NCBI GenBank assembly: GCA_030390025.1
Contig: JASTWF010000034.1
Span: 4,836,001-4,900,000, forward strand
Reading direction: 5' to 3'
Origin: Squalus acanthias
Taxonomy: Eukaryota
DNA: 64,000 bases
Shown here: piece by piece, positions 1 to 64,000 of the stretch
Position numbering within the stretch: position 1 is the stretch's first letter
Layout of the letters: the number at the start of each line of letters is the position of its first letter
Translations under genes and position numbers: made by a program
The notes under the pieces: model-generated
The model's input: the letters and a program-made list of their open reading frames with translations, nothing else
Told to the model about the DNA's origin: nothing
The model's database searches: none

Positions 1-932
1 ATTTAACAATTAACTGTGTCAGTTTTACCGTGTATTGGTTATCATACCCAATTTAACAATTAACTGTGACAGTTTTACCCTGTGTATTGGTTATCATATC
101 CAATTTAACAATTAACTGTGACAGTTTTACCCGTTGTATTGGTTATCATACCCAATTTAACAATTAACTGTCAGTTTTACCCTGTGTATTGGTTATCATA
201 TCCAATTTAACAATTAACTGTGTCAGTTTTACCGTGTATTGGTTATCATACCCAATTTAACAATTAACTGTGACAGTTTTACCCTGTGTATTGGTTATCA
301 TCCCCAATTTAACAATTAACTGTGACAGTTTTACCCTGTGTATTGGTTATCATCCCCAATTTAACAATTAACTGTGACAGTTTTACCCTGTGTATTGGTT
401 ATCATACACAATTTTACAATTAAATGTGACAGTTTTACCCTGTGTATTGGTTATCATACCCAATTTAACAATTAACTGTCAGTTTTACTGTGTATTGGTT
501 ATCGTACCCAATTTAACAATTAACTGTGACAGTTTTACCCTGTGTATTGGTTATCATACCCAATTTAACAATTAACTGTCAGTTTTACACTGTGTATTGG
601 TTATCATACCCAATTTAACAATTAACTGTGACAGTTTTACCCTGTGTATTGGTTATCATACCCAATTTAACAATTAACTGTCAGTTTTACACTGTGTATT
701 GGTTATCATACCCAATTTAACAATTAACTGTGACAGTTTTACCCTGTGTATTGGTTATCATACCCAATTTAACAATTAACTGACAGTTTTACCCTGTGTA
801 TTGGTTATCATGCCCAATTTAACAATTAACTGTGACAGTTTTACTCTGTGTATTGGTTATCTTACCCAATTTAACAATTAACTGACAGTTTTGCCCTGTG
901 TATTGGTTATCATACCCAATTTAACAATTAAC
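1..932. repeat. AT-rich satellite, ~50-52 bp unit (ATTTAACAATTAACTGTGACAGTTTTACCCTGTGTATTGGTTATCATACCCA), running off the left edge
   Basis: About 18 head-to-tail copies read directly; degenerate units recur at ~1110-1160 and ~2230-2340, on both sides of the L2 insertion. Confidence 0.97.
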
Positions 933-1176
933 TAACTTTATGCACTTGTGTATTATTTTTCAAGTCAAATTTAAATAACTGTAGCTGTTGTTTCCCCTCT
1001 ATGCTTACTATGTCAATTTTTACAAATAATTGCAACGTTCTGAATAAAATAATAAGTAAGATTTGGAGTAGGTCCTGCGCTACAATCTTTTTATTAGTTT
1101 TCATGTCCAATTTATCAATCAACAGTGCCTTTGTTCCTCGGTGTATTGGTTACCACTTCCATTTTAAAACCACCTC

Positions 1177-2344: not shown

Positions 2345-4080
2345 GCCAGCCCACATTTGTTGAAGGCAAATCGTGTTTGACTAAACTGATTGAGAGTTTT
2401 GATGAGGTAACAGGGTTGATGAGGGCTGTGCAGTTGATGTTCTGTATTCGGACATTCAAAAGGCGTTTGATAAAGTTACACATATTAGGCTTGTTAGCAA
2501 ATTAAAGCCCGTGGGATAAAAGGGGCAGAGGCAGCATGGATACAAATTGGATCAGGGACAGAAAACACAGAATTGTGTTGAATGGCTGTCTTCGGGCTGG
2601 AGGGAGGTAAATAGTGCAGTTCCCCAGGGTTCAGTACTGGGGCTAGAGGGAGGTAAATAGTGGAGTTCCCCAGGGTTCAGTACTGGGGACTGGAGGGAGG
2701 TATACAGTGGAGTTCCCCAGGGTTCAGTACTGGGGTCTGGAGGGAGGTATACAGTGGAGTTCCCCAGGGTTCAGTACTGGGGTCTGGAGGGAGGTATACA
2801 GTGGAGTTCCCCAGGGTTCAGTACTGGGGTCTGGAGGGAGGTATACAGTGGAGTTCCCCAGGGTTCAGTACTGGGGTCTGGAGGGAGGTACACAGTGGAG
2901 TTCCCCAGGGTTCAGTACTGGGGTCTGGAGGGAGGTTTACAGTGGAGTTCCCCAGGGTTCAGTACTGGGGTCTGGAGGGAGGGATACAGTGGAGTTCCCC
3001 AGGGTTCAGTATTGGGGTCTGGAGGGAGGGATACAGTGGAGTTCCCCAGGGTTCAGTACTGGGGGCTGGAGGGAGGTATACAGTGGAGTTCCCCAGGGTT
3101 CAGTATTGGGGTCTGGAGGGAGGGATACAGTGGAGTTCCCCAGGGTTCAGTACTGGGGGGAGGGGGGAGACATAAATGACATAGTTATAGTCATACTTTT
3201 CCATTACTGATTGATATTATTTATTATGTATTTCTAATCGCTCTTTAATGGGCATATAATTGGCAAATGCAATTTATACAGATAAATCTGAGGTATTACA
3301 TTTTGGTAAGAAAAGTAGAGCGGTCACATATTACATTGAAAATAAAAATCTAAATTGGGTAGAGGAGCAAAGGAATCTCAGAGTACAAATACACACATCA
3401 CTGAAAGTAGCGACACAGGTTAATAAGGCCATAAAAAGCAAACCAATCACTCGGGTTTATTTCTGGAGGGGTAGAATTGAAAAGTAGTGAATTTACTCTA
3501 AACTTGTATCGAACCTTGTTTAGATCACACTTGGAATGCTGCGTACAATTCTGGTCGCTATATTCTAAAAAGGATATAGAGACACTGGAGAGGTTGCAGA
3601 GAAGATTTACACGGATAATACCAGAAAAGCAAGGTATACGTATTAGGAACGGATGAACAGGCTGGGTCTCCTTTCTCTTGAAGGCTGAGGGTTGACCTGA
3701 TAGAGGTCTTTAAAATGAGGAAAGGTTTTGATGGAGTAGATAGAGACAGAGTGTTTCCACTTGTGGGGAAGAGCAAAATTAGGGGCCATCAATATGAGAT
3801 AATCACCAAGAAATCAATAAGGGAATTCAGAAGAAACCTCTTTACCCAGAGAGTGGTGAGAATGTGGAACTCGCTACCACAGGGAGTGGTTGAAGCGAAT
3901 AGTATTGATGCATTTAAGGGGCAGTTAGATAAGCATATGTGGGAGAAGGGAATAGAGGGTTACGCTGATAGAATTAGATGAGGTAAGACGGGAGGAGGCT
4001 CGAGTGGAGCACAAACGCTGGCATGGACTGGTTGGGTCGAATGGCCTTGTTCTGTGCTGTCTACCCCATGTAATCCTCTG
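2345..4080 (+). mobile_element. Degraded CR1 LINE ORF2 3' part, containing an internal 47-bp tandem amplification
   Basis: KGKSCLT..., DIQKAFDKV, GVPQGSVLG and FTQRVVRMWNSLPQ..V.A.S...FK..LD motifs, followed by a CR1-type 3' UTR. Confidence 0.9.
2597..3158 (+). repeat. 47-bp minisatellite (~12 copies) derived from CR1 RT sequence encoding WREVYSGVPQGSVLG
   Basis: Unit TGGAGTTCCCCAGGGTTCAGTACTGGGGTCTGGAGGGAGGTATACAG; it is collinear with the flanking CR1 ORF2. Confidence 0.95.
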
Positions 4081-4084
4081 TTAG

Positions 4085-4930
4085 AGAGTAAAGCTCTCAT
4101 CAAAAACCTCCAGGTCAGGAACAGTGGGTTAGATACAAAGTAAAGCTCCCTCTACACTTCCCCACCAAACAGTCCCAGGGCAGGTACAGCATAGGTTAGA
4201 TACAAAGTAAAGCTCCATCAACACTGTCCCACCAAACACTCCCAGGGCAGGTACAGCACGGGTTAGATACAGAGTAAAGCTCCCTCTACACTGTCCCACC
4301 AAACACTCCTAGGGCAGGTACACCACGGGTTAGATACAGAGTAAAGCTCCCTCTGCACTGTCCCACCAAACACTCCCAGGGCAGGTACAGCACTGGTTAG
4401 ATACAGAGTAAAGCTCCCTCTGCACTGCCCCATCAAACACTCCCAGGGCAGGTACAGCACGGGTTAGATACAGAGTAAAGCTCTCTCTGCACTGTCCCAC
4501 CAAACACTTCCAGGGCAGGTACAGCACTAGTTAGATACAGAGTAAAGCTCCCTCTACACTGCCCCATCAAACACTCCCAGGGCAGGTACAGCACGGGTTA
4601 GATACAGAGTAAAGCTCCCTCTACCCTGTCCCATCAATCACTCCCAGGTCGGTACAGCACGGGTTAGATACAAAGTAAAGCTCCCTCTACACTGCCCCAC
4701 CAAACATTCCCAGGGCAGGGACAGCACGGGTGAGGTACAGAGTAACGTTCCCTCCAATTTGGTTCATCAACACAACCAACTCTGATACATCATGTGTTCA
4801 ATGCAGCCTACAGCTCACTTGACACTACCCAATGAAGCACAACCAGCTCGGGTACAGCATGGGGTCAATACAGAATAAAGATCCCTCTACATGTAAGTGT
4901 CAAACACTCCCGGGTGAGGTACGGGCAAGG
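4085..4930 (-). repeat. 67-bp satellite array (reverse orientation), degenerating toward 4930
   Basis: Period 67 (GGTTAGATAC at 4261 and 4328); it is the reverse complement of the unit at 8835-11262. Confidence 0.95.
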
Positions 4931-8600: not shown

Positions 8601-8826
8601 TACCACATCTTCCCAGATTTGATCCCTGGCCCCCAATATTTAGTTGAAAGCCCTCTCTACCGCCCTAGTTATATGTCTCGCCAGAACACTAGTCCCAGCA
8701 AGGTTCAGGTGAAGACCAACCCAACGGTACAGATCCCACTTTCCCCAGTACTTGTGCTAGTGCCCCAGGAAGCAAAACCAATTTCTCCCATACCAGTCTT
8801 TGAGCTACGCATTCATCTCTCTAATT
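5610..8826 (-). mobile_element. CR1 LINE (end of ORF1 and whole decayed ORF2: APE endonuclease + RT)
   Basis: LKALYLNARSIRNK, IAITETWL, VVYRPPNS, IMGD.NL, YLDFQKAFDKVPH, KFADD and VQRRFTRLIPG motifs; 3' tail at 5610. Confidence 0.95.
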
Positions 8827-8834
8827 TGAAGTAA

Positions 8835-11262
8835 CAGGGTAGAGGGAGCTTTACTCCGTATCTAAACCGTGCAGTATCTGCCCTGGGAGTGTTCGATTGG
8901 TCTTTGTAGAGGGAGCTTTACTCTGTATCTAAACCATGCTGTACCTGCCCTGGGAGTGTTTGATGGGTATTTGTAGAGGGAGCTTTACTCTGTATCTAAC
9001 CCGTGCTGTACCTGCCCTGGGAGTGTTTGATGGGTCTTTGTAGAGGGAGCTTTACTCTGTATCTAACCCGTGCTGTATCTGCCCTGGGAGTGTTTGATGG
9101 GTATTTGTAGAGGGAGCTTTACTTTGCATCAATCCCTGTGCTGTACCTGCCCTGGGAGTGTTCGATAGGTCTTTGTCAAGGGAGCTTTACTCTGTACCTA
9201 ACCCGTGGACTACCTGCCCTGCGAGTATTTAATGCGACAGTGATGAGGGAGCTTTACTCTGTATCCAACCTGGGCTGTACCTGCCCTGGAAATGTTTGAT
9301 GTCAGTGTCCAGCAAGCTTTACTCTGTATCTAAACTGTTCTGTAACTGCCCTGGCACTTTTTGATAGGACAGTGTAAAGGGAGCTTTACTCTGTACCTTA
9401 CCCATGCACTACTTGCCTTGCGAGTGTTAGATGGGACAGTGTAGAGTGAGCTTTACTCTGCATCTTACCTGTGCTGTAACTGCCCTGGGAGTGTTTGATG
9501 GGACAGTGTAGAGGGAGCTTGACTCTGTAACTAACCCATGCACTAACTGCCCAGCGAGTGTTTGATGGGACAGTGTAGAGGGTGCTTTATTCTATATCTA
9601 ACCATTGCAGTACCTGCCCTGGGAGTGTATGATGGGAATCTGTAGAGGGATCTTTACTCTGCATCTGACCTGTGCTGTAACTGTCCTGGGAGTGTTTGAT
9701 GGGACAGTGTCAAGGTAGCTTTACTCTTCATCTTACCTGTGCTGTACCTAAACTGGGAGTGTTTGATGGGACAGTGTAGAGGGAGCTTTACTCTGTAACT
9801 AACCCATGCACTAACTGCCCAGCGAGTGTTTGATGCGACAGTGTAGAGGGAGCTTCACTCTGTATCTAACCTGTGCTGTACCTGCCCTGGGAGTGTTGGA
9901 TGCAACAGTGCAGAGGGAGCTCTACTCTATATCTAACCATTGTTGTATCTGCACTAGGTGTTTTTGATGGCACAATGTATTGTGAGCTATACTCGGTATC
10001 TAACCCGTGCAGTACCTGGCCTGGGAGAGTTTGTTGGAACAGGATAGAGGGGTCTTTACTCTGTATCTAACCCGTGCTGTACCTGCCCAGGGAGTGTTTG
10101 ATGGGACAGTGTAGAGTTAGCTTTACTCTGCATCTTACCCGTGCAGTGCCAGGCCTTGGAGTGTTTGATGTGATAGTATACAAGGAGCTTTACTCTGTAC
10201 CTAATCAATGCACTAACTGCCCTGCGAGTGTTTGATGGGACAGTGCTGTGGGAGCTTTACTCGATATCTAACCCGTGCTGTAACTGGCCTGAGAGTGTTT
10301 GATGCAACAGTGTAGAGGCAACATTACTCTGTATCTTACCTGTGCTGTACCTGACCTGGGAGTGTTTGAAGGGATAGTATAGAGGGAGCTTTATTCGGTA
10401 TCTTACGGTGTGCTGTAGCTGCCCTGGGAGTGTGTGATGGGTCCGTTTAGAATGAGATTTAATCTGCAGCTAAACTGTGATATACCTGCCCTGTCAGGTA
10501 TTGAAACGACAGTGTAGAGGGAGCTTTACTCGGTATCTAAGCCGTGCTGTATCTGCCCTGGGAGTCACTGATGGGACAGTGTAGAGGGAGCTTTACTCTG
10601 TATCAAACCCGTGCTGTTGCTGCCCTGGGAGTGTTTATGGGACAGTGTAGAGGGATCTTTAATCTGTATCTAAACCGTACCTGTTCCTGCCCTGGGAGTG
10701 TTTGTTGGGACAGTATAGAGGGAGCTTTACTCTGGATGTAACCCGTGCTGCACATGACCTGGGATTGTTTGATGTCATAATGTGGAGAGAGCATTACTCA
10801 GTATCTAACCCGTACTCAACCTGCCCTGAGAGTGTGTGTTGGGACAGTGTAGAGGAAGCTTTACTCTGTATCTAAACATTGCTGTACCTGCCCCGGGAGC
10901 ATGTGTTGGGACAGTGTAGAGGAAGCTTTACTCCGTATCTAAAACTTGCTGTACCTGCCCTGGGAGTATGTGTTGGGACAGTTTAGAGGAAGCTTTACTC
11001 TGTATCTAAACCTTACTGTACCTGCCCTGGGAGTGTTTGATGGGATTGTGTAGAGGGCTCTTTACTCTGTATCTGAATATTGCTGTACCTGCCCTGGGAG
11101 TGCAAAAACGGGCAGTGTATTGTGCGCTTTACTGTATATCTAACCCATGCTGCACCTAACCTGCGAGAGTTTGATGGGACAGTGCAGAGGGATCTTTACT
11201 AAGTATCTAACAACTGCTATACCTGCACTGGGACTGTTTGATGGGACAGTGTAGTGGGAGCC
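8835..11262 (+). repeat. 67-bp satellite array (~36 diverged copies)
   Basis: Unit GAGGGAGCTTTACTCTGTATCTAACCCGTGCTGTACCTGCCCTGGGAGTGTTTGATGGGACAGTGTA. Confidence 0.97.
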
Positions 11263-11590
11263 TTATAACTCTTTATAACGTTAGAATCCTTAATAATCAT
11301 TTACAAAAGGTGTATAACGGGTTAATAAGGATTATATTGATTTATAAAGGGTCATGTCCCTTTATCTTATTTTGCATCACTTTGTACCCCATTCAATACC
11401 CTTTATAATACTTTGTCAATCATTATAACACTTTATAAGCCTTTGTCGATCATTACAACCCTTTATATTCCTTAACAATTCATCATAACACTTTATATTC
11501 TATTATCAACCTTTATATATCATTATAATACTTTATATTCATTTATAATAATTTATAACCCAGCATAATCCTTTATAAACTTTTATAAAG
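11263..11590. repeat. AT-rich low-complexity degenerate repeat (CTTTATAA/CATTATAA motifs)
   Basis: Recurrent CTTTATA words read directly. Confidence 0.6.
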
Positions 11591-12657: not shown

Positions 12658-12744
12658 CAGTGTAGGATCCGTTGATTGTTAGCCCTCCCCAAATGCATTA
12701 CCTCACACTTCTCCGGATTGAATTCCATTTGCCGCAATCTTCCT

Positions 12745-13290
12745 GCATGTAGCATGAGTAATACACAGAGTAAAGCTCCCTTTACACTGCCCAATCAAAT
12801 AGTCCAAGGGCATGTATAGCACGGGTGAGATAGCGAGATGCAGAGTAAAGCACCCTTTACACTGCCCAATCAAACAGTCCAAGGGCAGGTATAGCACCGG
12901 TTAGATCGAGAGATACAGAGTAAAGCTCCCTTTACACTGTCCAATCAAACAGTCTAAGGGCAGGTATAGCACCGGTTAGATAGAAAGATACAGAGTAAAG
13001 CTCCCTTTACACTGCCCAATCAAACAGTCCAAGGGCAGGTACAGCACGGGCGAGATAGAGAGTTACAGAGTGAAGCTCCCTTTACACTGCCCAATCAAAC
13101 AGTCCAAGGGCAGGTACAGCACGGGTTAGATAGAGATACACAGAATAAAGCTCCCTTTACACTGCCCAATCAAACAGTCCAAGGGCACGAACAGCACGGG
13201 TTAGATAGAGAGAGACAGAGTAAACCTTCCTCTACACTGTCCACTCAAACACTCGCAGAGCAGGTACAGCGCGGGTGACATGCAAAGCTC
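12745..13290 (-). repeat. 75-bp variant of the 67-bp satellite (8-bp AG-rich insertion per unit)
   Basis: Period 75 (TTAGAT at 12901 and 12976); otherwise aligns to the 67-bp unit. Confidence 0.9.
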
Positions 13291-13531
13291 CCTCTAATAA
13301 AACATGTGCAGCGTACAGCTCCCTTGACACTACCCAATGAAGCACAACCAGCTCGGGTACAGCATGGGATGAATACAGAATAAAGATCTCACTACATGCA
13401 AGTGTCAAACTCTCCCGGGTGAGGTACGGGCAAGGTTTATCTCCGAGTTAAGCTCCGCTCAACTTGCCACATCAAAGGCCGAGCCAGATGGCAGATGTTG
13501 GACAGCTCCCAGTATCTGGTTGGACTCTCAC

Positions 13532-22975: not shown

Positions 22976-25622
22976 ACTGTAACACTCTGATGTACCCCAC
23001 ATCCCTCACTGTAATACTCTGATATAAATCCACACCACTCACTGTAACACCCCAAACACGCTCCTGTAATTCTGATATACATGGCGCTACTCACTGTATC
23101 ACTGATATAACCCACACCCCTCATTGTAACACACTGATATAAACCACACCACTCACTGTAAGACTCTGATATACCCAACATCCCTTACTGTAACACTCTG
23201 AGATACCCCACACCCCTCACTGTAACAGCTTGATATACCCCACACCACTCACTGTAACATTCTGATATAAACCAAACCCCTCAATGTAACACTCTGATAT
23301 ACCACACACTCCTGACTGTAACCCTCTCTTACATACATCAAATCTCTTAATGTAACACACCTTTATACCCCATGCCCCTCATTGTAACACTCTCTGATAT
23401 ACTGCATACCCCTCGCTGTAGCACTCCAATATACCAAACACCCCTGACTGTAAACCTGATATACCCGACACCCCTCACTGTAACACTCGCTGATATAGAA
23501 ACATAGAAACATAGAATCTAGGAGCAGGAGTAGGCCATTCGGCCCATCGAGCCTGCTCCACCATTCAATACGATCATGGCTGATCATCCAAATCCAGTAC
23601 CCTGTCCCTGCTTTAATCCCCACAGTACACATATCCCACCCTACCCCCGTAACCCCACGTATTTAATTCCCCCTAACATATCCCATCCTATCCCCATAAC
23701 CCCACATATTTAATCCCCCCCTAACACTAAGGGTCAATTTATCATAGCCAAATCAACCTAACCCGCACATTTTTGGACTGTGGGAGGAAACCGGAGCACC
23801 CGGAGGAAACCCACGCAGACACGGGGAGAATGTGCAAACTCCACACAGACAGTCACCCGAGGCCAGATTCGAACCCGGGTCTCTGGCGCTGTGAGGCACC
23901 AGTGCTAACCACTATGCCACCGTGTTGCCATACCCCTCGCTGTAACACTCTGATATACTCGACACCATTCAGTGTAACACACTGATATAATCCCAACCCC
24001 TGACTGTAACACTCTGTTATACAACGCAACTCTCCCTGTAACACTCTGAGGTAACCCACACCACTCATTGTATTACTCGGATATAAACCACACCCCTCAC
24101 TGTAACACTCTGATGTAATCGCACGCCCCTGACTATGATATTCTGATATACCCCACACACCTCTTTCTGCAACACACCGATATACCCGACAGCCATCACG
24201 GTAACAACATGATATACCCAACACCCCACACGGTAACACTATGATATATCCCATACCCCTCGCTGTACCACTGTGATATACCCTACATCACTCACTTTGA
24301 CACTCTGATATACCCCTCATTTTAATCCTCTCGTACATATCCCAAACCTCTCACTGTAACAGACCAATATACCCCACGCGACTCACTGTAACTCTCTGAT
24401 ATACCCCATAGCCCTCACTGTAACTCTCTAATATACCCCACACCCCTCGCTGTAAAACACTGATAAATCCCACACGACTCACTCTAAGACTCTAATATAC
24501 CCCACACCCCTCGCTGTAACACACTGATATATCCCACACGACTCACTGTAACTCTCTGATATACCCACACCCCTCAATATAACACTCTGATATACCCCAC
24601 ACAACTCACTGTAAAACTCTGATATACCCCACACCCCTCACTGTAACACTATGATATACCCCACACAACTCACTGTAACACTCTGATATACCTCACACCC
24701 CTCACTGTAACACTCTGATATGCCCCACATCCCTCACTGTAACTCTCTGATGTATTCCACACGCCGCGCTTTAACACGCTGATATACGCCACATGACTTA
24801 CTGTAAAACTCTGATATACCCCGCACCCCTCACTGTAACACACTGATATACTCGACACCCCTTAATGTAACAATCTGATATAAACCCACACCGCTCATTT
24901 TATTACTCTGATGTACACCACACCCCTCACTGTAGCATTCTGATATATACCCACTCCCCTGACTATAACCCTTTGATATATCCCACACACCCCTCACTTT
25001 AACACACCGATATATCCCACACCCCTCATGGTAACACTCTGATATACCTATCACACCACACGGTTACACTCTGATATAGCCCACACCCCTCGCTGTAACA
25101 ATCTGATATACCCCACTCACCTCCCTTTAACACTCTGATATATCCACATCATTCACTTGAGCACTCTGATATAACCCTCACTTTAATCCTCTTACATAAC
25201 CCAAACCTCTACTGTAATGGACCGATATACGCCCCTCACCTCCCTTTAACACTCTGATATACCTCACACCCCTCAATGTAAAACTGTGATTTACCACACA
25301 CCACTCACTGCAAGACTATGATACACCCCACATCCCTCACTGTAACTTTGATTAGCCCACGTCCCTCGCTTTAACACTGCGATTTACCCCACACTCCTCA
25401 CTCTAACACTCTGATATACCGGACACCTCTCTCTCTAACTCTCTGATATGGCCCACAGCCTTCACTGTAACACACTGATACACCCCTCATTGTAATCCTC
25501 TCTTACATACTGATAAACCCCACACCACTCACTGTCACACTATGATACATGCCACACTCTGGGCTGTTATTCCCCACAGCACTCACTGTAATACTAATAT
25601 TGTTCCACACCACTCACTGTTA
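22975..25622. repeat. ~33-bp minisatellite array (CACACCCCTCACTGTAACACTCTGATATACCC), interrupted by a SINE
   Basis: Dozens of diverged tandem units read directly. Confidence 0.93.
23494..23929 (-). mobile_element. HE1-like V-SINE: tRNA-derived head, V-domain and CR1-derived 3' tail
   Basis: Head GGCAACACGGTGGCATAGTGGTTAGCAC (A box)...GGTTCGAATC (B box); V-domain TGTGTGGAGTTTGCACATTCTCCCCGTGTCTGCGTGGGTTTCCTCCGGGTGCTCCGGTTTCCTCCCAC; tail shared with local CR1s, ending (TTTCTATG)n. Confidence 0.88.
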
Positions 25623-28140: not shown

Positions 28141-31100
28141 CCCCTGGCGAAGTGGAGTGAGGGGTGGAGTGAGGAGGTGGGCAGGCCTTCTCATTAACCA
28201 CCCCGTCATAGCCTTAAAGCTGAAATATCTGTGGTGCTATGTGGGTTTGCTCTCATGGCCATCAGACAGTTGGATAACATGTTAAACCACTGTCTGGGGT
28301 GGTCCGTACAAAACGTTTCCAGCATGGTTTTAAGGGTTCGATTTCCCCACTCCACTACCTCTGATGATTGTGGGTGGTGCACTACATGCAATTTGTGGGA
28401 GAATTTCATGAGTCTCTGAAGTTCTGAGAACATTTTGCTGGTAAAATGAGTCTCTTGGTTACTATCCACCTGGATTGTTATTCCGCACCTGCAGACCACC
28501 TCACACAAAAGCAGTTTTGCTGCTGTCAGGGCTGTGTTCATTCTACAGCGGAAAGCCTCAATCCATTTCATCAATATGTCTATTAGGACCAGACAGTATT
28601 TGTAGCCCGAGGGCGCCGTGACGAGGGTGCCTATAAAGTCTATCTGGATGTGTGTCCAGGCTCCGTAGTAAATCGAATAATTCTCCTCCCATAGCTGGGG
28701 GGCGCAGGTGACGCAGACATCCGGGGTACTGACGTACATGAGGATGTATAGCAGGGTGCCGGGCGCATCATGGTGAAGGGAGGTGAGCGGGGTTAACGGG
28801 GTTGGCCCAGTAAGGTTGGCCCTGCAGGTGCCATGCGATTACGACCGAGTATGGGTCGTACATGGCTTGCAAGGAGGCTGGATCGTTGGCCGGGCTTACA
28901 GCTGATATGGGTAACGGGTCAGTTTCCTGGGGTTTTGCCCCCACAAACAGGCCACTATTCCGGCCTGCTTTGCTGCCTTGTCTGCAGAGGAGTTGCCCCT
29001 AGCTAGTGGTTCCATGGAGCGGGAATGTGCCCTAACCGTGCCCATATAGACAGGTGCCGTACGTCCCCGCAACACCGCGTCCAGAACCCGAAAAGGGACC
29101 GCGTGTAACAAGAGTTTACCGTCGGTCATGCAAACGTTATTCCGGGCACACAGGGGTAAGGAGAGCAGGGTGTTGATAGCATAGGCACTGTCGGACCAAA
29201 TATTCATACTTTGAGAATTGGTAATCTGAATGGCAGTGACGGGGGCAGCCACCTCAGCGTACTGTGCCGAATGAGGGCTACATTTTTAATGAATGACCAC
29301 ATTCGGCAAGATAATGGCGAACCCGGTGCACGGTTTACCGTCCTTGTGAAATGACGATCCCTCGATAAAGGCATCCGGAGCGTCCTGAATCAGCTCTGCC
29401 TGGACCGAAGGGATGCGGAAGTCCAGCGGAGGAAAAGAACATTCGTGTGGTGTTTCGTCGTACAGGAGACGCTGAGGCAGTGAGGTAATTGGTTTGGGAG
29501 TGATCTCCAGGTCGCGCTGAGTCAGTTCCAATGTCCAATGGCTCAGCCGGGCTGATGACACCAGCGTGTCTCCGGGCCGGAGCAACAGGTTCAGAGGTGT
29601 GTGTGGAATCTGCAGTATCACCCGCTTGAACGCCGTATTGTGGTGAAGTGTTTGACGGCCCATATCGTGGATAACAAGTGTCTTTCGCAAGTGGAGTAAG
29701 TCAGTTCGACGCCCCTTAAGATTCTGGAGGCCGATGCGATAGTTACTAGTCCGCCCTGGTTATCTTGGCATACGGCGGCGAAGGGCTTTTCTCGCTGGGT
29801 CCGAACACCATGTGGAGGGGTTTCTGGGATTGGGTGAAACCAGACATGTCGCCTGTAGGCGGATTGCTTCAACGGCGCCACTGCGACCATGCAGCCCTTA
29901 GTCCAGCCGGGTTTGATATAATGGTCATCTTCTTTAAGTAGTTCATGAAGTGGTGCAGCAGTCTCTGTGAACCGTGGAATGAAGGTCCGCTGATATCCCA
30001 CCAGCCCAAGGAAGGAACGCAGTGCAGTCTTTGAGGTGGGCAGGGATAGAAGCTGGATGGTTTCGACCTGGGGCCGTTCAGGGCTGATGCCGGATGCTCC
30101 GATTCGGACGCCTTTAAAGGTAACAGTCCTGTGCCAATTGTGCCTTACGTGGTTGAACCTTTAGTCCGGCACCCTTCAGGTTCGCAATAGTTCTTGTAGG
30201 GGGTTTCGGTGCTGGGCGCCGTCTGTGGCAGCAAGCAGGATATCATCAACATATTGAAGCAAATCGGAAGGTAGTGGAAAGCTCTTCAGAACCCTGGCCA
30301 TACGTTTGTGGAAAAATAATGGGGGCATTATCGGACCCCTGCGGCAAACACGTCCAGGTGTAACCCTGATCCTCGAAGGTAAATGCGAATTTAAACGGAT
30401 CTTCCTGTCTTATAGGGATTCTCCAAAAGCCATTAGAAATATCCAGGGTTGAGAAGACTGTCCTTCCGCTGGGAAGCTGAGAGAGTAGGGTGGGTGTGTC
30501 CCTAACTCTCTGTCTGGAGTTCCAGATGGCCCTGACTTTTGGTTAGGCAGCGGGTCCTCAACGGCCGCTACTGCAGCCTTGGCAGGTGTCCTAGGGATAT
30601 TGGCACGGGTCTGATCCCAAGCAGTCCTGGCATGGGTGCGTAGTTGTTCCCACGGGGTGTCTTTGGAGACGTAAACGCCCAGCACGTTATGGACCAATGG
30701 TTGGAGGCCGTTCAAAAAGAGGTTTTTGAAGCTCGGGTGTTTGAAGTAATTCCCTCCGCCGCCCCTGGTGCGCTGGGAAATGTCATGGAGTTTATGCACA
30801 AAAAGCATTCGGGCTTTCGGTAGGGCCCTGTTTGGTGTTAGCTCGGACCTGGTGAAAATCAATGCCCTCCTGCCCGAGTGTTTGGCCTAGTTCTAATTAA
30901 ATCTCATATATTGTGACCCCCTCAGTATGTCCAGGTCCATTTCTTGTTTTAATCCAGAGGAACATGCATCCAGGAAGACCTGTTTGAGGTTGTCCCCTTC
31001 TAGTTCCGGGCGGGTGATCATGAAAATCCTCCAGCGCTGCCTGAGGTTGAGGAGGCTGGGGTCCCTATTCCCCGCCGCCAGGATAGCCTTTAGTGACCCC

Positions 31101-31310
31101 ACTTCAACCGCGGTAAGGGAGCAATGCGTGGTTGTGGTAGCGGTTTCTGCCTCGTTACAAGTGGTGGTCGAGGAGGCCGCCTCGCCATTCGGGTCTTGGC
31201 CAGCCTGGTGCTTGGACTCGCATGCTGCTGCAGCTCAGTGACCACAAAAACTGGTATCGTCTCCCCCGCCTCACCTTCCTTGTTTGGGTGGGGCGGAGCA
31301 GAGGGAGCAG
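28141..31310 (-). mobile_element. Decayed retrovirus-like LTR element internal region: gag-like (~30410-31310), RT (~29900-30410), tether/degenerate RNase H, second RNase H (~28900-29400), integrase (28141-28740)
   Basis: Own translation FKFAFTF..QGYTWTCLPQG...LLQYVDDILLA...LRSFLGLVGYQR.FIP; TCERHLL..IWAVKHF; F(I)EGSS...NIWSDSAY...VRAHS...GNSSADKAAK; WTHIQIDFIG...HPQSSEVVE.GNRTLK. Protease and RT N-terminus are deleted; no LTR seen. Confidence 0.9.
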
Positions 31311-31349
31311 AAAGTGTAGTTTTCTCAATGATGTTGTCCCAGCAAAGGT

Positions 31350-46619: not shown

Positions 46620-48335
46620 ACAACGCCCTGTATACTATACCAGTGTGACACCACCTCTATATACGATACCCGTGACACCCCCTGTATACTATACCCGTGA
46701 AAACCCCTGTACACTACACCCCTGTGACACGCCCCGTATACGATAACCCTGTGTCGCCCCCTGTATACTCTACCCGTGACACCCCCCTGTACACTATACC
46801 TGTGACACCCCCTGTATATTTTACCCGTGACACCCCCTGTACACTATACCCGTGACACCCCCCTGTATAGTATACCCCTGTGACACCCCCTCGGTACACT
46901 AGAGCCCTGAGACACCCCCTGTACATTATACCCCGTGACATCCCCCCCCCCCAATATGCTATACCCGTTAAAACCCCTGTACAGTACACCCGGGACATCC
47001 CCGTATACTATACCCGTGACACCCCCTGTACACTATACCCGTGACAACCCCGTATACTATACCCCTGTGACAACCCCTGTATACTATGCCCCTTTGAGAC
47101 TACCCTGTATACTATACCCGTGACACCCCCTGTATACAATACCTCTGTGACACTCCCCTGTATACTATACCCATGACAACCCCTGTATACTAAACCCCTG
47201 ACAGTCCCCTGTATACAATACCCCTGTGACACTCCCCTGTATACTATACCCGTGACACTCCCCTGTGTACCATACCCCTGTGAAACAACCCGTGTACTAC
47301 CCGTGTCACCCCCCTGTATACTATACCCCTGTGACACACCCCAGTATACTATAGCGCTGTGTCACCACCCTCATATACTATACCCGTGATACTCCCCAGT
47401 ATTCTATAGCCCTGTGACACCACCCTGTATACTACACCACTGCGACACCCACTTGTACACTGCACCCGTGACATCCCCTGTACACTATAACCCTGTGACA
47501 CTCCCCCTTTTTACTATACCCCTGTGAAACCCCCCGTTCACTATACCCCTGTAACACCCCCCCATGACACCACCGCTGTATACTATACCTGCGACACTCC
47601 CCTGTATACTATACCCCTGTGACACCCCCTGTATTCAATACCCGTGACACACAGCTGCATACTATATCCCTGTGACAACCCTGTATACAATACCCGTGAC
47701 ACACCCCTTTATACGATACCCGTGACATCCCCTGCATACTATACCCCTGACACTCCCCTGTATACTATACCCATGACATCCCCTGTATACAATACCCGTG
47801 ACACACCCCCGTATACTATAGCCCTATGACACTCCCCTGTATAATATACCCATAACACCCCCTGTAAACTATATCCCCGTGACGCCCCCTGTATACTACA
47901 CCCCTGTGACACCCCCTGTACAATATAACCCTGTGACACTTCCGCTTAATACTATAACCGTGACACCACCACTGTATACTATACCCGTGACACTCCCCCT
48001 GTATAAAATACCCGTGACACCCCTGTATACTATACACGTGACACTCCCCTGTATACTATACCACTGCGACACCCCTCTGTATACTATACCCCAGTGATAC
48101 TCCCCCTGAATACTTTATCCCTGTGACACCACCCCTGTATACTAGAGCCCTGTGACACCCCCTGTATACTAGACCCGTGCCAACCACTCTATAGTATACC
48201 CACGTGACACTCCCTGTATACTACACCCCAGTGACACCCCCTGTATACTTTACCCCTGTGACACCACCCTTGTATACTGGACCCCTGTCACAATCCCCTG
48301 TATAGTATACCCTCGTGATACCCCCTGTATACTGA
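46620..48335. repeat. ~25-bp minisatellite (TATACTATACCC(CT)GTGACACCCCCTG)
   Basis: Long diverged tandem array read directly. Confidence 0.93.
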
Positions 48336-60699: not shown

Positions 60700-62520
60700 G
60701 TTTGATGGAACAGTGTAGAGTGAGCTTTTTTCTGTATCTAACCCGTGATGTACCTGCCCTGGGACTGTTTGATACGAAAGTGTAGAGGGAGCTTTATAGG
60801 GTATCTAAATTGTGCCGTACCTGTCCTGGGAGTGTTTGATGGGACAGTGAAGAGGGAGCTTCAATCTGTATCTAACCCGTGCTGTACCTGCCCTGGGAGT
60901 GTTTGAGTGTCTCACTCCCTCACTCCCTCTCTCTCTCCATGTCGCTCCCTCTCTCTCTCTCTCCATTTCGCTCCCTCTGTCTTTCTCTCTCTCAATGTCT
61001 ATTCCTCTCTCTCTCTCTTTCGCTCCTTCCCCTCTCTGCTGCCGTCCATCTCCCCCTCTCTCGCTCTCTTCGTCTATTCTGCCAACACGCTACCTCTATC
61101 CCTAATTTTCTCCTTCTCCCTGTGCACCTGTCTTTCTTTCTCTCTCCCTCTCTCTCTGTTCCCGCTCTGATTTGTGTCTTGATTGAAAAGTACCCTGAAA
61201 TATTTCAGCCTGACTGTTTAAATAACAACACATTTCTGTGACATTTTTTATATCTTAAGCATAGGGCTCGGAATCTGTTGGCTATATCAGGTTTCACGAT
61301 ATTTGAGTGTTTAAAATTGACTGGGATATTGATACAGAGAATGTTTCAGACATTCCTGCTTGTGGAACGATGTGAAATCTTTGCATTAGCAGCAAATGGG
61401 TTTGTTGAAAGGAGATGCGGATTTTGTTTGTTTGTATAAGGTGAGAATCAGATCGTGTCTGACTAACTTCAAACTCTTCAAACACATGAAGGAACTAGAG
61501 ATGGGGGCAATACACAAACCTGAGACCCCAGACAAGGGCCGAAGGAAGGTTGGTTCACAGATTAACCATTCTCCAGGCTGATAGTTTCGGGGTGATAGCA
61601 TTCTGGAGGCCTGGGCAAACATACAGAAAGCACGAGTTCAAATCCCTCCCTGGGCTGTTGACAATTTGAATTCTGTTCTTTTGAAATAAAATAAATCTGA
61701 AATAAAAAAACTTCCAAATCAGAATGACTCCCTCCCGCCTGGTCCTGTGCAGCCGAGTGTGCCGGACAGTACAAGGCGGGAGTGAATTGTTGCCTTTTAC
61801 CCGCTGTGTGTACTGTATAAAGATACAGATTAAAGTCTGTATATTTTGGTGTTTGTGTGTGTGTGTATGTTGGAGATGGATTTTGGATATATTTTCAGAT
61901 GGAGATCTAAAGATAAAAATAAGGAGCGTTTAAAATCGGGGTTGTTAATAGAAACAAGATTTATGTAATGAAGTATAAGAATTGCAGGAACCTACTTTAG
62001 AAGAACGCACTCCTTGTTAATTGAGAAAGACACAGAAAATACGTTGATTAAACTGATAACGTACAATTTAATTTGTTTTGAATGTTTGAAATAGGAGATT
62101 AAAAATTGAGTGAACAATGAAGTTTGTTTGTTTGTCTCCCACTTTTCGTGGGGAAGAACCTAAAATAATTCAACTCTTTTCATGATAAGAGCAGGGATTA
62201 ATATTTTGTAGAATGTCTGAGAGAAAAACATTTGAAGCGAAATAGGTAAATTATAAATCTTTAATTCAACATATGAATAAACATCTCCAAGTCAGTCTGA
62301 CTGGTTCTGCTGTCCAGGAAGAAAGACAGATGATTATTTCTGTTCAGTCGTAGCTTTTCCTGCTTTGTGTTTATAATTAAGTGACGCAAATATTTTGTAT
62401 ATTTGTCAATAATAAATTAACAGCAAATAATGACATTTCTGTGACAATTTTTATGTCTTAAAAGATTGCATTTGTGGCTCGGAATCTGGCTGGTAAATCT
62501 AGTTTAATTACCTGAAAGAC
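60700..62520 (+). repeat. Segmental duplication copy B, truncated by an ERV-like fragment at ~62520
   Basis: Aligns to 55690-57520 up to CTACCTGAAAGA/TTACCTGAAAGA. Confidence 0.93.
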
Positions 62521-64000
62521 ACTAGAATTCTTACACTGTGACCTGAACATTACGCCTCAACGAACCACGCTGTGACCACTTATGCTCGCCTATGAGGGAA
62601 GCCCACACCAGTGTCCATTACCAGTGCTAGATATGGAACCAAATCCAGTAAAGGCTAACGCCATACCCGGAGCTCCAAATGTGTACCTTGACAGGTCATC
62701 ATACTGTGTAGATGGCCATCCTAGAACTGGATGCGCCCTTATTGATATCGACGCTCCCGATTGGTCAGCGGGATTTCACGTTCCCGTCCACTCCTCACAA
62801 CAGGCAGAACTGATTGCAGTAATTCTAGCCGTACATTACACGGCTTTGGATGAAACAAATATCTGGTCCGACAGCAGTTACGTTTATAATACAGTTATGG
62901 CTCTTCCCCTCTCGAATACCAATGAGTTTTGCTCATCAGAACATAAATCTTTATTACATTCTGGTCTCCTCCGTAAGCTATGGAAAGTGCTCCAGGAACG
63001 AGTCGCCCCTTGTCACGTGTGTAAGGTAGCAGCCCATCAGAAAGATTCATCCCCCCATTCTCGAGGTAACCAAATGGCCGATCGCTTTGCTAAGCAGGCG
63101 GCCGAGAACGGAAAGTTACTATCTTGGTGGGTATGAATAATACTCAGACACCCGTAGTGGGGGCGGTGACTAAGATTAAAACCATTGATCTTTTGGCCCT
63201 ACAGGATTCATATGCTCCTTATGCACAGCTAATAGCCTGGCATCAACAGGGATGCCCGGTACCAGCACCCACCCTATGGGCAGACTCCACTGTAATGCGA
63301 CAAGATGTAGATAAAAACCCTCCCCTAATAATGATCAGGAATAAAGAGGGTGACCTAGTAGTTTGTATTCCTCCTCAGTTAAAGGAAGACATTCTAGCTC
63401 TCTTTCATTCATTTCCCGGGGGCAGTTTTCACAACTCTGCAAGAAATGTTACAGATAAAACATAAATTGCACCTTGCGCCCCATCCACAATCATCAGGGA
63501 TTGTGGAGAGGGGAAATCGAACTTGAAAGACAATGTTGCAGAAGTTGTGTACAGATCACTCCACTCAGTGGACTGACATATTGCCTTTATGTCTAATGGC
63601 AATACGATCTACCCCACACGGGACTACGAGGGTAAGTCCATATGAGGCTATGACTGGGAGGCAAATGAGGATACCAGGACAAGCAATATATGAAAATAAC
63701 ACACCATTAAAACTACAACCATGTAGCCAAAAATGGTTACAAACCTTGGTAGATCATATGGATGAGGTGAGCAAGCTGGTGGCCATTAACATAGGCAAAT
63801 CGCGTGAACAAATCAAGCGATATTATAAGAGAGTAAAACCATTTGAGTATGATGTTGGAGACCGAGTAATGTCACACAATTTATCTCCAAAAAATCACTC
63901 ATTCGAGATAAAATCGATGGGCCCTCATACCACAGTAGATACATTAAATCCAGCTGTGTATCTACTGAATGTCCCAAATGGTCCGAAGGGAGACCTAAAC
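62520..64000 (+). mobile_element. Decayed retrovirus-like pol: end of tether, RNase H, integrase (central part deleted, GPY/F-like C-terminus); related to 28141-30410
   Basis: VYLDRSS...SSQQAELIAV...NIWSDSSY...KVAAH...GNQMADRFAKQAA; HPQSSGIVERGNRT*KTMLQKLC...LMAIRSTPH.TT.VSPYEAMTGRQMR; YDVGDRVM...MGPH. Confidence 0.9.

What the first reader, a model, noticed from the sequence alone, without database searches (positions are those of the whole stretch)
28141..31310. Retrovirus-type pol with two RNase H domains in a shark-like genome: candidate lokiretrovirus-like ERV
Seen: order gag-like, RT (WTCLPQG, LLQYVDDILL), Gypsy-like RNase H remnant (ASRILRGVELTYSTCERHLL..IWAVKHF), second RNase H (EGSS/SDSAY/AH/GN..AD) and integrase. 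Established: a tether plus a second RNase H is characteristic of retroviruses and their sister groups (lokiretroviruses, Odin elements), not of ordinary vertebrate Gypsy elements. Inference: because the first RNase H still looks Gypsy-like, this is more likely a basal loki-like lineage than a gamma/epsilon ERV, and such lineages are poorly described in cartilaginous fish.
Basis: partly seen in the sequence, partly recalled or inferred. Interest (0 to 1): 0.72.

Follow-up and report, generated by a model that had tools for sequence, protein, structure and literature searches.

The report
Dead snakehead-type retrovirus fragment, not Loki
This is a broken, duplicated piece of an ancient retrovirus, likely in a shark-type genome, whose reverse transcriptase groups with ordinary retroviruses rather than lokiretroviruses, while fuller copies elsewhere carry an envelope predicted to fold like measles/RSV-type fusion proteins.

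Summary
On the minus strand lie a gag remnant, RT, a catalytically dead Gypsy-like RNase H (tether), a second RNase H and integrase. The window copy has lost its LTRs, protease, RT start, integrase zinc finger and env. Its 98-99% twins are segmental duplicates.

The Loki reading fails. RT falls inside canonical retroviruses (96/99 and 100/96 support), and forcing it with Loki is rejected (p-AU 0.033). It is outside Gypsy, class I and foamy, next to 'NYNRIN-like' frog and coelacanth elements. By eye it matches the elephant-shark CmiERV lineage I (Han 2015; clade Huo, class III).

Fuller family copies have ~800-bp LTRs, a tRNA-Leu primer site, 4-bp target duplications and an env. That env is distantly homologous to snakehead-retrovirus Env and predicted F-type from low-confidence models. 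Tether, RNase H and integrase do resemble Loki's, most likely as shared ancestral traits.

The scan has already reported this kind of element several times on other DNA of this genome. Verdict: a new member of a known kind.

The parts
30514..31348 (-). gag remnant (capsid-like part). The 5' LTR, leader and 5' gag are missing, and the gag 3' end with the zinc knuckle is deleted.
   Evidence: 89% DNA identity over 836 bp to gag of fuller copy L118; tblastn 51% to the gag ORF of L047, which carries zf-CCHC
30506..30514 (.). junction of a ~980-bp internal deletion (gag end, protease, RT N-terminus)
   Evidence: the gap between the two blastn segments in L118 and L125; protease-like matches are present in L118, L121 and L125 but not in the window
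29906..30506 (-). reverse transcriptase core and thumb, frameshifted several times (LPQG, YVDD motifs)
   Evidence: Pfam RVT_1; 64-88% identity to the unbroken RT frame of family copy L047 in its core pieces; RT trees
29493..29905 (-). tether: degenerate Ty3/Gypsy-type RNase H
   Evidence: Pfam RT_RNaseH_2 / RT_RNaseH; in family copy L047 the three catalytic carboxylate positions of Gypsy RNase H read G, H and P (alignment)
28941..29375 (-). second (retroviral) RNase H; the first catalytic position reads E in this copy
   Evidence: Pfam RNase_H E=1.9e-10; RNase H tree places it on the Loki/foamy/SnRV side of a 97/91 split from class I RNase H
28141..28935 (-). integrase: linker, ~180-bp deletion of the zinc finger at 28666/28665, catalytic core; C-terminus, env and 3' LTR cut off at 28141
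   Evidence: Pfam rve; 73% identity to integrase of L045; deletion mapped against L116 and L122
26481..28138 (+). flanking LINE-like RT fragment that abuts the 3' break; duplicated together with the element, not part of it
   Evidence: ORFs read by eye as non-LTR RT (not scanned); shared with the 92-99% duplicates
62519..63982 (+). second, more distant element of the same lineage (tether end, RNase H, integrase); env-like sequence follows just beyond the window end
   Evidence: tblastn 36-54% to P0001; env match at 25-38% in L126

Best explanation
The stretch is a dead, multiply deleted fragment of an endogenous retrovirus whose RT lies inside canonical retroviruses, likely in the snakehead-retrovirus-related class III group (clade Huo, CmiERV lineage I), and its near-identical twins arose by duplication of the surrounding host DNA. 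The ancestral virus would have replicated as an ordinary simple retrovirus. RT was primed by host tRNA-Leu (primer site shown). The tether has lost its catalytic residues (shown in a family copy) and likely serves as a structural connector, while the second RNase H would degrade the RNA. Integrase left 4-bp target duplications around ~800-bp TG..CA LTRs (shown in two proviruses). Cell entry would have used a furin-cleaved Env with a long transmembrane subunit, predicted to be of the paramyxovirus-F/foamy type and distantly homologous to snakehead-retrovirus Env. The Loki-like tether, RNase H, integrase and Env are inferred to be traits kept from the common ancestor of Loki and canonical retroviruses.
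For: RT trees: canonical-retrovirus branch 96/99 and 100/96. Loki is separate at 100/99-100/100, class I at 99/98 and foamy at 100/100. The AU test rejects family+Loki (p=0.033). Best database hits are 'NYNRIN-like' / 'Gypsy integrase-like' Pol of Xenopus tropicalis (59%), frogs and coelacanth (49-52%), then an SnRV-type Pol (38%). CmiERV scaffold 2 (lineage I, SnRV-clustering in Han 2015) shows the same RT and integrase words by eye. LTR-gag-pol-env-LTR layout, PBS and TSDs. PBS matches a tRNA-Leu(CAG) gene of G000 (250 pattern matches against 0 control; ARAGORN confirmed 1 of 4 loci). Env: Atlas top clusters Fusion_gly/Baculo_F at 0.94; Foldseek top 12 rows and VIA top 11 rows are all F proteins or foamy Env; 22% over 246 aa to L127 Env, E=2e-6 pairwise. 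Duplication: 98-99% identity runs through flanking LINE and host DNA in the 3 of 4 twins checked with long flanks.
Against: The base of canonical retroviruses is unresolved: SnRV-type P0009, foamy and ERV-L/S-like rows form an open fork with this clade, so 'clade Huo' rests on the by-eye match to CmiERV I and not on my tree. The tree held only 2-3 Loki rows, no Odin and no class II RT. The AU p of 0.033 is modest. The integrase tree leaves this lineage and Loki in an unresolved basal grade. Both Env models are low confidence (pLDDT 43), the best Z is 8.1 (rmsd 4.9, 171 aligned), Pfam Fusion_gly is only E=0.036, and the PDB profile search was not significant. The folded Env comes from a sister family (44-51% identical to this family's env pieces), and the window itself has no env. 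Host class was not tested.
Confidence: 0.85

Rival explanations
1. It is a true lokiretrovirus (or Loki/Odin-side lineage), the first in a cartilaginous fish.
For: Dual RNase H. The tether scores best against Loki outside its own clade, and RNase H sits on the Loki+foamy side. Integrase scores higher against Loki (192-207 bits) than against class I, foamy or SnRV (94-155) when P0001 is the query. Env is predicted F-type. Loki was found in 0 of 3 chondrichthyan genomes (supplement row).
Against: RT trees and AU test. RT reads LPQG where the published Loki consensus sequences seen read PFGY.NS, and they have a long protease-RT spacer. A Loki Pol query found only 32-36% RT-RNase H matches in G000 (41 of 26,188 candidates scored, stricter first look); the 7 of these put in a tree all fell on the canonical side.
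Confidence: 0.04
2. It is a recombinant: a canonical class III RT joined to tether, RNase H, integrase and env taken from a lokiretrovirus.
For: The domains disagree: RT is canonical, while tether, RNase H and integrase are closer to Loki. Wang and Han report repeated RNase H and integrase replacement in retroviruses.
Against: Neither RNase H nor integrase nests inside or is sister to Loki: Loki RNase H is sister to foamy (97/80) and Loki integrase is its own 100-support clade. The Env has detectable similarity to the SnRV-type Env. The same domain set runs through frog and coelacanth relatives, which fits shared ancestry better than a swap.
Confidence: 0.08
3. It is a Ty3/Gypsy element that gained an extra RNase H independently, like plant Tat elements, or it is a foamy-like or epsilon ERV.
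For: The first RNase H hits Gypsy-type Pfam models. The best PDB hit of RT+tether is foamy Pol (E=5e-55). Some databases label relatives 'Gypsy retrotransposon integrase-like'.
Against: Gypsy (100/99), foamy (100/100) and class I (99/98) are each closed clades that exclude it. Gag has a CCHC knuckle, which foamy viruses lack. An env gene lies between integrase and the 3' LTR.
Confidence: 0.03

Closest known systems
CmiERV lineage I of the elephant shark (Han 2015, PMC4422223; first half of the text and the scaffold 2 sequence in the supplement read); clade Huo / class III (Xu 2018, PMC6001957, passages)
   Same: By eye, RT, tether, RNase H and integrase share long identical words with this family. 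LTR-gag-pol-env layout, LTR of about 800 bp, coiled-coil-like Gag N-terminus and one CCHC knuckle.
   Different: CmiERV scaffold 2 has a gamma-type env (immunosuppressive motif plus CX6CC, read by eye) and a different primer site (tRNA-Ser by recall). This family has a tRNA-Leu site and a predicted F-type env. The comparison was not computed.
Snakehead retrovirus (L127/P0009, taken as SnRV from its 10,688-nt length and layout, which is recalled)
   Same: RT 38% identical. Same side of the RNase H split. Env collinear and distantly homologous around the cleavage site, heptad region and Cys-rich part.
   Different: Not sisters in my RT tree (open fork). SnRV-type Pol has an insert before integrase, a much longer SU and extra 3' ORFs, and its primer site differs.
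Lokiretroviruses (Wang and Han, PMC7947760: first half of the text, passages, supplement passages and part 59; PMC9040795: first quarter)
   Same: Dual RNase H with a well-preserved tether, group-I-side RNase H, similar integrase, F-like Env with a basic cleavage site.
   Different: RT is outside the Loki clade, with different RT motifs and no long protease-RT spacer.
Unnamed 'NYNRIN-like' ERV Pol proteins of Xenopus tropicalis, Pyxicephalus, Rhinophrynus, Aquarana, Latimeria and Amia (P0001, P0003-5, P0007, P0131); CGIN1/NYNRIN lineage (Marco and Marin 2009, recalled, not read)
   Same: Nearest sequences (49-59% in RT+tether); one clade in the RT tree (96/91; 87/90 with more G000 rows).
   Different: Their env genes were not examined, and human NYNRIN itself was not in my trees.
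XtERV-S / ERV-L (Yedavalli 2021, PMC8278194, parts 1-2 of 8 read)
   Same: Class III. tRNA-Leu priming is the ERV-L hallmark (recalled).
   Different: These have YIDD, a dUTPase and no Cys-His box; XtERV-S has a gamma-type TM and ERV-L has no env. This family has YVDD and a CCHC knuckle, and no dUTPase was detected in the integrase ORFs scanned.

Membership tests
Lokiretrovirus | RT falls in the Loki clade, sister to canonical retroviruses | tested here: not met
   Loki 100/99-100/100 separate, this RT inside canonical 96/99-100/96; AU p=0.033. Only 2-3 Loki rows, identified by motif match to the published consensus.
Lokiretrovirus | Dual RNase H (tether plus acquired RNase H) | tested here: met
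   Shared with all retroviruses, so not diagnostic.
Lokiretrovirus | Env related to Mononegavirales F | tested here: inconclusive
   No env in the window. Family env pieces are 44-51% identical to a sister-family Env that is predicted F-type by Atlas, Foldseek and VIA, but from pLDDT-43 models.
Lokiretrovirus | Integrase in the Loki/CGIN1 group | tested here: inconclusive
   Quick tree: unresolved basal grade that includes Loki, outside class I+foamy+SnRV (SH-aLRT 92).
Odin retrotransposons | Loki-sister RT, no env, cnidarian hosts | tested here: not met
   Family copies have env and RT is not on the Loki side. No Odin sequence was available for the tree.
Canonical Retroviridae | RT inside the canonical retrovirus clade | tested here: met
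   (class II references absent).
Canonical Retroviridae | LTR-PBS-gag-pro-pol-env-PPT-LTR with target-site duplication | tested here: met
   In fuller family copies L037/L038 and L047/L048; not in the truncated window copy.
Clade Huo / CmiERV lineage I (SnRV-related class III) | Pol groups with SnRV, ERV-L and CmiERV I | tested here: inconclusive
   Open fork with SnRV-type and ERV-L/S-like rows. The CmiERV I likeness is strong but was judged by eye only.
Class I (gamma/epsilon) ERV | RT and RNase H in the class I clade | tested here: not met
   Class I RT 99/98 excludes it; RNase H split 97/91.
Foamy-like ERV (clade Tu) | RT in the foamy clade; Gag without a Cys-His box | tested here: not met
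   Mammalian foamy RT 100/100 excludes it; zf-CCHC present. Fish foamy-like ERVs were not in the tree.
Ty3/Gypsy | Single active Gypsy-type RNase H and Gypsy RT | tested here: not met
Catalogued Repbase/Dfam family | Match to a named consensus | not testable with these tools

The most novel reading that the evidence does not exclude
This lineage (sharks, coelacanth, frogs, bowfin) is the canonical-retrovirus branch that best keeps the ancestral toolkit shared with lokiretroviruses: a barely decayed tether, group-I RNase H, CGIN1-like integrase and an F-type Env. With snakehead retrovirus and foamy viruses, it would show that a paramyxovirus-F-like fusogen was the original retroviral envelope. 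The gamma-type env on the same pol in the elephant shark would then be a later swap.
Probability: 0.35. Interest if true: 0.65.

Novelty: new member of a known kind. Interest (0 to 1): 0.3.

Why it matters
The window copy itself is an inert fragment. The family matters modestly, for two reasons. It shows that a Gypsy-looking tether and an F-type envelope do not identify a lokiretrovirus. It also pairs an early-branching canonical pol with an envelope class that one recent paper attributes to Loki in contrast to canonical retroviruses (PMC13524379, passage). Because the elephant-shark relative carries a gamma-type env on what looks like the same pol, the lineage is a useful test case for which envelope type retroviruses started with.

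Tried and rejected
Homologue search with the family's env N-half: none at E<=0.01 among 2,323 candidates. Atlas on the same piece was weak (recognition 1419, haemagglutinin first). The PDB sequence-profile search with the env alignment gave nothing significant (best E 0.25). The first Env model gave no PDB match at E<=0.001 and mixed viral hits. Pfam found no family for the SnRV-type Env, and Gag against SnRV-type Gag was not significant. Sequencing runs: no RNA holder listed, which is no evidence on expression. The viral-contig scan with the Xenopus Pol found no relative. Searching G000 with a catshark epsilon-like Pol gave 45-46% matches, uninformative on host class. XtERV-S was rejected as the identity of P0001. 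Reading the top hits as Loki because they come from Loki host species (Xenopus, bullfrog, coelacanth) was rejected after reading the published Loki Pol. P0239's RT segment was extracted badly (long branch) and was dropped, along with 4 Gypsy and 4 class I rows. The first 84-row careful tree did not finish and only its quick version was seen. The look-up of earlier findings by sequence returned nothing. Literature: ten searches showed no paper describing an F-type env on this pol lineage. However, PMC10699275 ('nine Spuma ERVs' from Agnatha and Chondrichthyes) was seen only as a listing, subscription journals and Repbase/Dfam are not covered, the Loki supplement was cut when stored, and bioRxiv supplements are closed.

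Full report
Observation. Pfam confirms RT (E=2.8e-11, 1.8e-4), a Gypsy-type RNase H-like domain (1e-7), a second RNase H (1.9e-10) and an integrase core (4.2e-7) in that order; 5 of 9 pieces scanned carried these hits. The gag pieces have no relevant Pfam hit but match gag of fuller copies. Mapped against its nearest relatives, the element spans 31348-28141. It lacks the 5' LTR and 5' gag, about 980 bp covering the gag end, protease and RT start, about 180 bp of the integrase zinc finger, and everything after the integrase core, where it abuts a LINE-like fragment. The remaining pol is broken by several frameshifts. No LTR or env of this family matches the window.

Copies in the genome. The window lies on contig C2671 of a 3.7-Gb genome. 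A DNA search scored 40 of 318 candidates and gave 57 matches: four twins at 98-99%, a subfamily at 84-89% and dispersed copies at 75-79%. In the 3 of 4 twins checked with long flanks, the 94-99% identity continues for kilobases into LINE and host DNA, so these are segmental duplicates, not new insertions. Of five copies of the 85-88% subfamily fetched, three keep protease-like sequence, four keep an LTR remnant, two keep the primer site and two keep the first ~30 codons of env after integrase. Two dispersed proviruses keep both LTRs: about 800 bp, TG..CA (one 3' LTR ends TA), with 4-bp target duplications and a purine-rich tract before the 3' LTR. Their LTR pairs differ by K2P 0.036-0.041. At the shark rate assumed by Han 2015 (2.2e-10) that is roughly 80-95 My, a very uncertain figure that dates those copies, not the window's. 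The primer site is complementary to a tRNA-Leu(CAG) gene of G000 (250 pattern matches against 0 control; ARAGORN called a tRNA in 1 of 4 loci), and was found in 7 of 16 loci scanned. Gag has a CCHC knuckle.

What the pol is. The unbroken RT+tether frame of family copy L047 finds as best hits 'NYNRIN-like' or 'Gypsy integrase-like' Pol proteins of Xenopus tropicalis (59%), other frogs, coelacanth and bowfin (about 44-56%), then an SnRV-type Pol (38%). The published Loki Pol sequences that I read in the supplement of PMC7947760 have a different RT signature and a long protease-RT spacer. Three database proteins with that signature served as Loki references. In a careful 51-row RT tree the window RT, read with X at its breaks, groups with its family (100/98) and with the Xenopus element (100/97). 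These lie in a frog/coelacanth clade (96/91) inside canonical retroviruses (96/99). Loki (100/99), Gypsy (100/99), foamy (100/100) and class I (99/98) are separate. Forcing the clade with Loki costs 19.3 log-likelihood units, p-AU 0.033. Dropping one badly extracted Loki row and adding seven more G000 RTs gave 100/96 for the canonical branch. The base of canonical retroviruses is an open fork, and no Odin, class II or fish foamy-like RT was available. A Loki query found no close match in G000 (32-36% over RT-RNase H; 41 of 26,188 candidates scored), which does not show absence.

Why it looked like Loki. The tether has lost the three catalytic carboxylates but is otherwise well kept. Outside its own clade it scores best against Loki tethers (75-79 bits, against 13-70 for Gypsy, 10-48 for class I and 5-18 for foamy). 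The second RNase H falls on the Loki/foamy/SnRV side of a 97/91 split from class I, with Loki sister to foamy, in line with Wang and Han's group I. Integrase forms an unresolved basal grade with Loki (quick tree). None of these domains nests in Loki, so retained ancestry is the simpler reading (inference).

Known relative in a cartilaginous fish. Han 2015 described CmiERV lineage I, clustering with snakehead retrovirus; Xu 2018 call this group clade Huo. Read by eye, the supplement sequence of CmiERV scaffold 2 shares long identical words with this family in RT and integrase; this was not computed. Its env, however, shows the gamma-type immunosuppressive motif and CX6CC, and its primer site differs. 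Loki itself was reported in 0 of 3 chondrichthyan genomes.

Envelope. In fuller copies an ORF with a hydrophobic start, a basic cleavage site, a glycine-rich fusion-peptide-like segment, heptads, a Cys-rich region and a C-terminal membrane segment follows integrase. Related env sequence is abundant (150 of 5,931 candidates scored, all matching). A sister family's env frame of 784 codons (44-51% identical to this family's pieces; RNase H sister at 100/99) was used for prediction. Atlas features put it with Fusion_gly/Baculo_F clusters (0.94). Models were poor (pLDDT 43), yet the top 12 Foldseek rows (best E 7.5e-4) and the top 11 VIA rows (best Z 8.1, rmsd 4.9, 171 aligned) are all paramyxo/pneumovirus F or foamy Env. 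Pfam Fusion_gly reaches only E=0.036. The family env is distantly homologous to the Env of L127, taken as snakehead retrovirus: 22% over 246 aa, pairwise E=2e-6, and hhalign 44% probability over 265 columns (the sister-family Env alone gave E=0.003). So the F-type call is likely but not proven, and it appears shared with a known exogenous retrovirus.

Host. Not tested directly.

Earlier scan notes. After reaching this reading I looked up the genome's notes. At least five earlier follow-ups on other DNA of this genome reached the same conclusion (not Loki; SnRV/CmiERV I-related; F-type env). They are unchecked AI notes and add no independent support.

Papers seen. PMC7947760 (parts 1-2 of 4, passages, supplement passages and part 59); PMC9040795 (part 1 of 4); PMC4422223 (part 1 of 2; supplement part 1 of 3); PMC8278194 (parts 1-2 of 8, passages). 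Passages only: PMC6001957, PMC8922424, PMC11089739, PMC13524379, PMC10435555, PMC10536682, PMC12440569, PMC9447858, PMC3424704, bioRxiv 2024.07.05.601823 and 2024.03.17.585361. Listing only: PMC10699275. Recalled: Marco and Marin 2009.

Verdict. A real retroviral dual-RNase H pol, dead and duplicated, of a known early-branching canonical lineage and not a lokiretrovirus. New member of a known kind; interest 0.3.

Noticed in passing
window 62519-63982 (+), continuing into L126: A second, more distant element of the same lineage (tether end, RNase H, integrase), followed beyond the window by env-like sequence 25-38% identical to the family env.
   Followed up: partly
L129, L137, L138 and many other G000 places: An abundant, apparently young ERV family of the same broad clade with pol frames of about 1,500 codons open in many copies; a distinct branch from the window's family.
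   Followed up: partly
G000, many places: An abundant epsilon-like ERV family with pol frames of about 1,190 codons open in many copies.
   Followed up: no
P0161 and P0224: A full-length Pol of this broad group whose RT lacks the YxDD motif (P0161, unnamed, 3 cluster members), next to a loggerhead-turtle relative; it may be a domesticated pol gene.
   Followed up: no
L037:3076-4332: Gag of the family begins with a long coiled-coil-like stretch, as does the SnRV-type Gag by eye; this may parallel the 'smc' region reported for some Loki elements (inference, untested).
   Followed up: no
L046:1453-2919 (-): A 489-codon TPR-repeat ORF (IFIT-like by recall) about 2.3 kb downstream of a family provirus's 3' LTR on C14.
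   Followed up: no
window 1-1000, 2545-3263, 4060-4769, 8729-11300, 12682-13356, 23000-25500, 46670-48100: Many minisatellite arrays (units of about 52, 47, 67, 75, 32 and 26 bp); the window lies in repeat-rich, segmentally duplicated DNA.
   Followed up: no
G000:C13:49374722-49403667 and C575: Tandem arrays, about 1.16-kb period, of the tRNA-Leu 3'-end pattern; probably tRNA gene clusters.
   Followed up: no
L089:2984-4876: A 631-codon gag-like ORF of another ERV family, with coiled coil and zinc knuckle, beside a family provirus.
   Followed up: no
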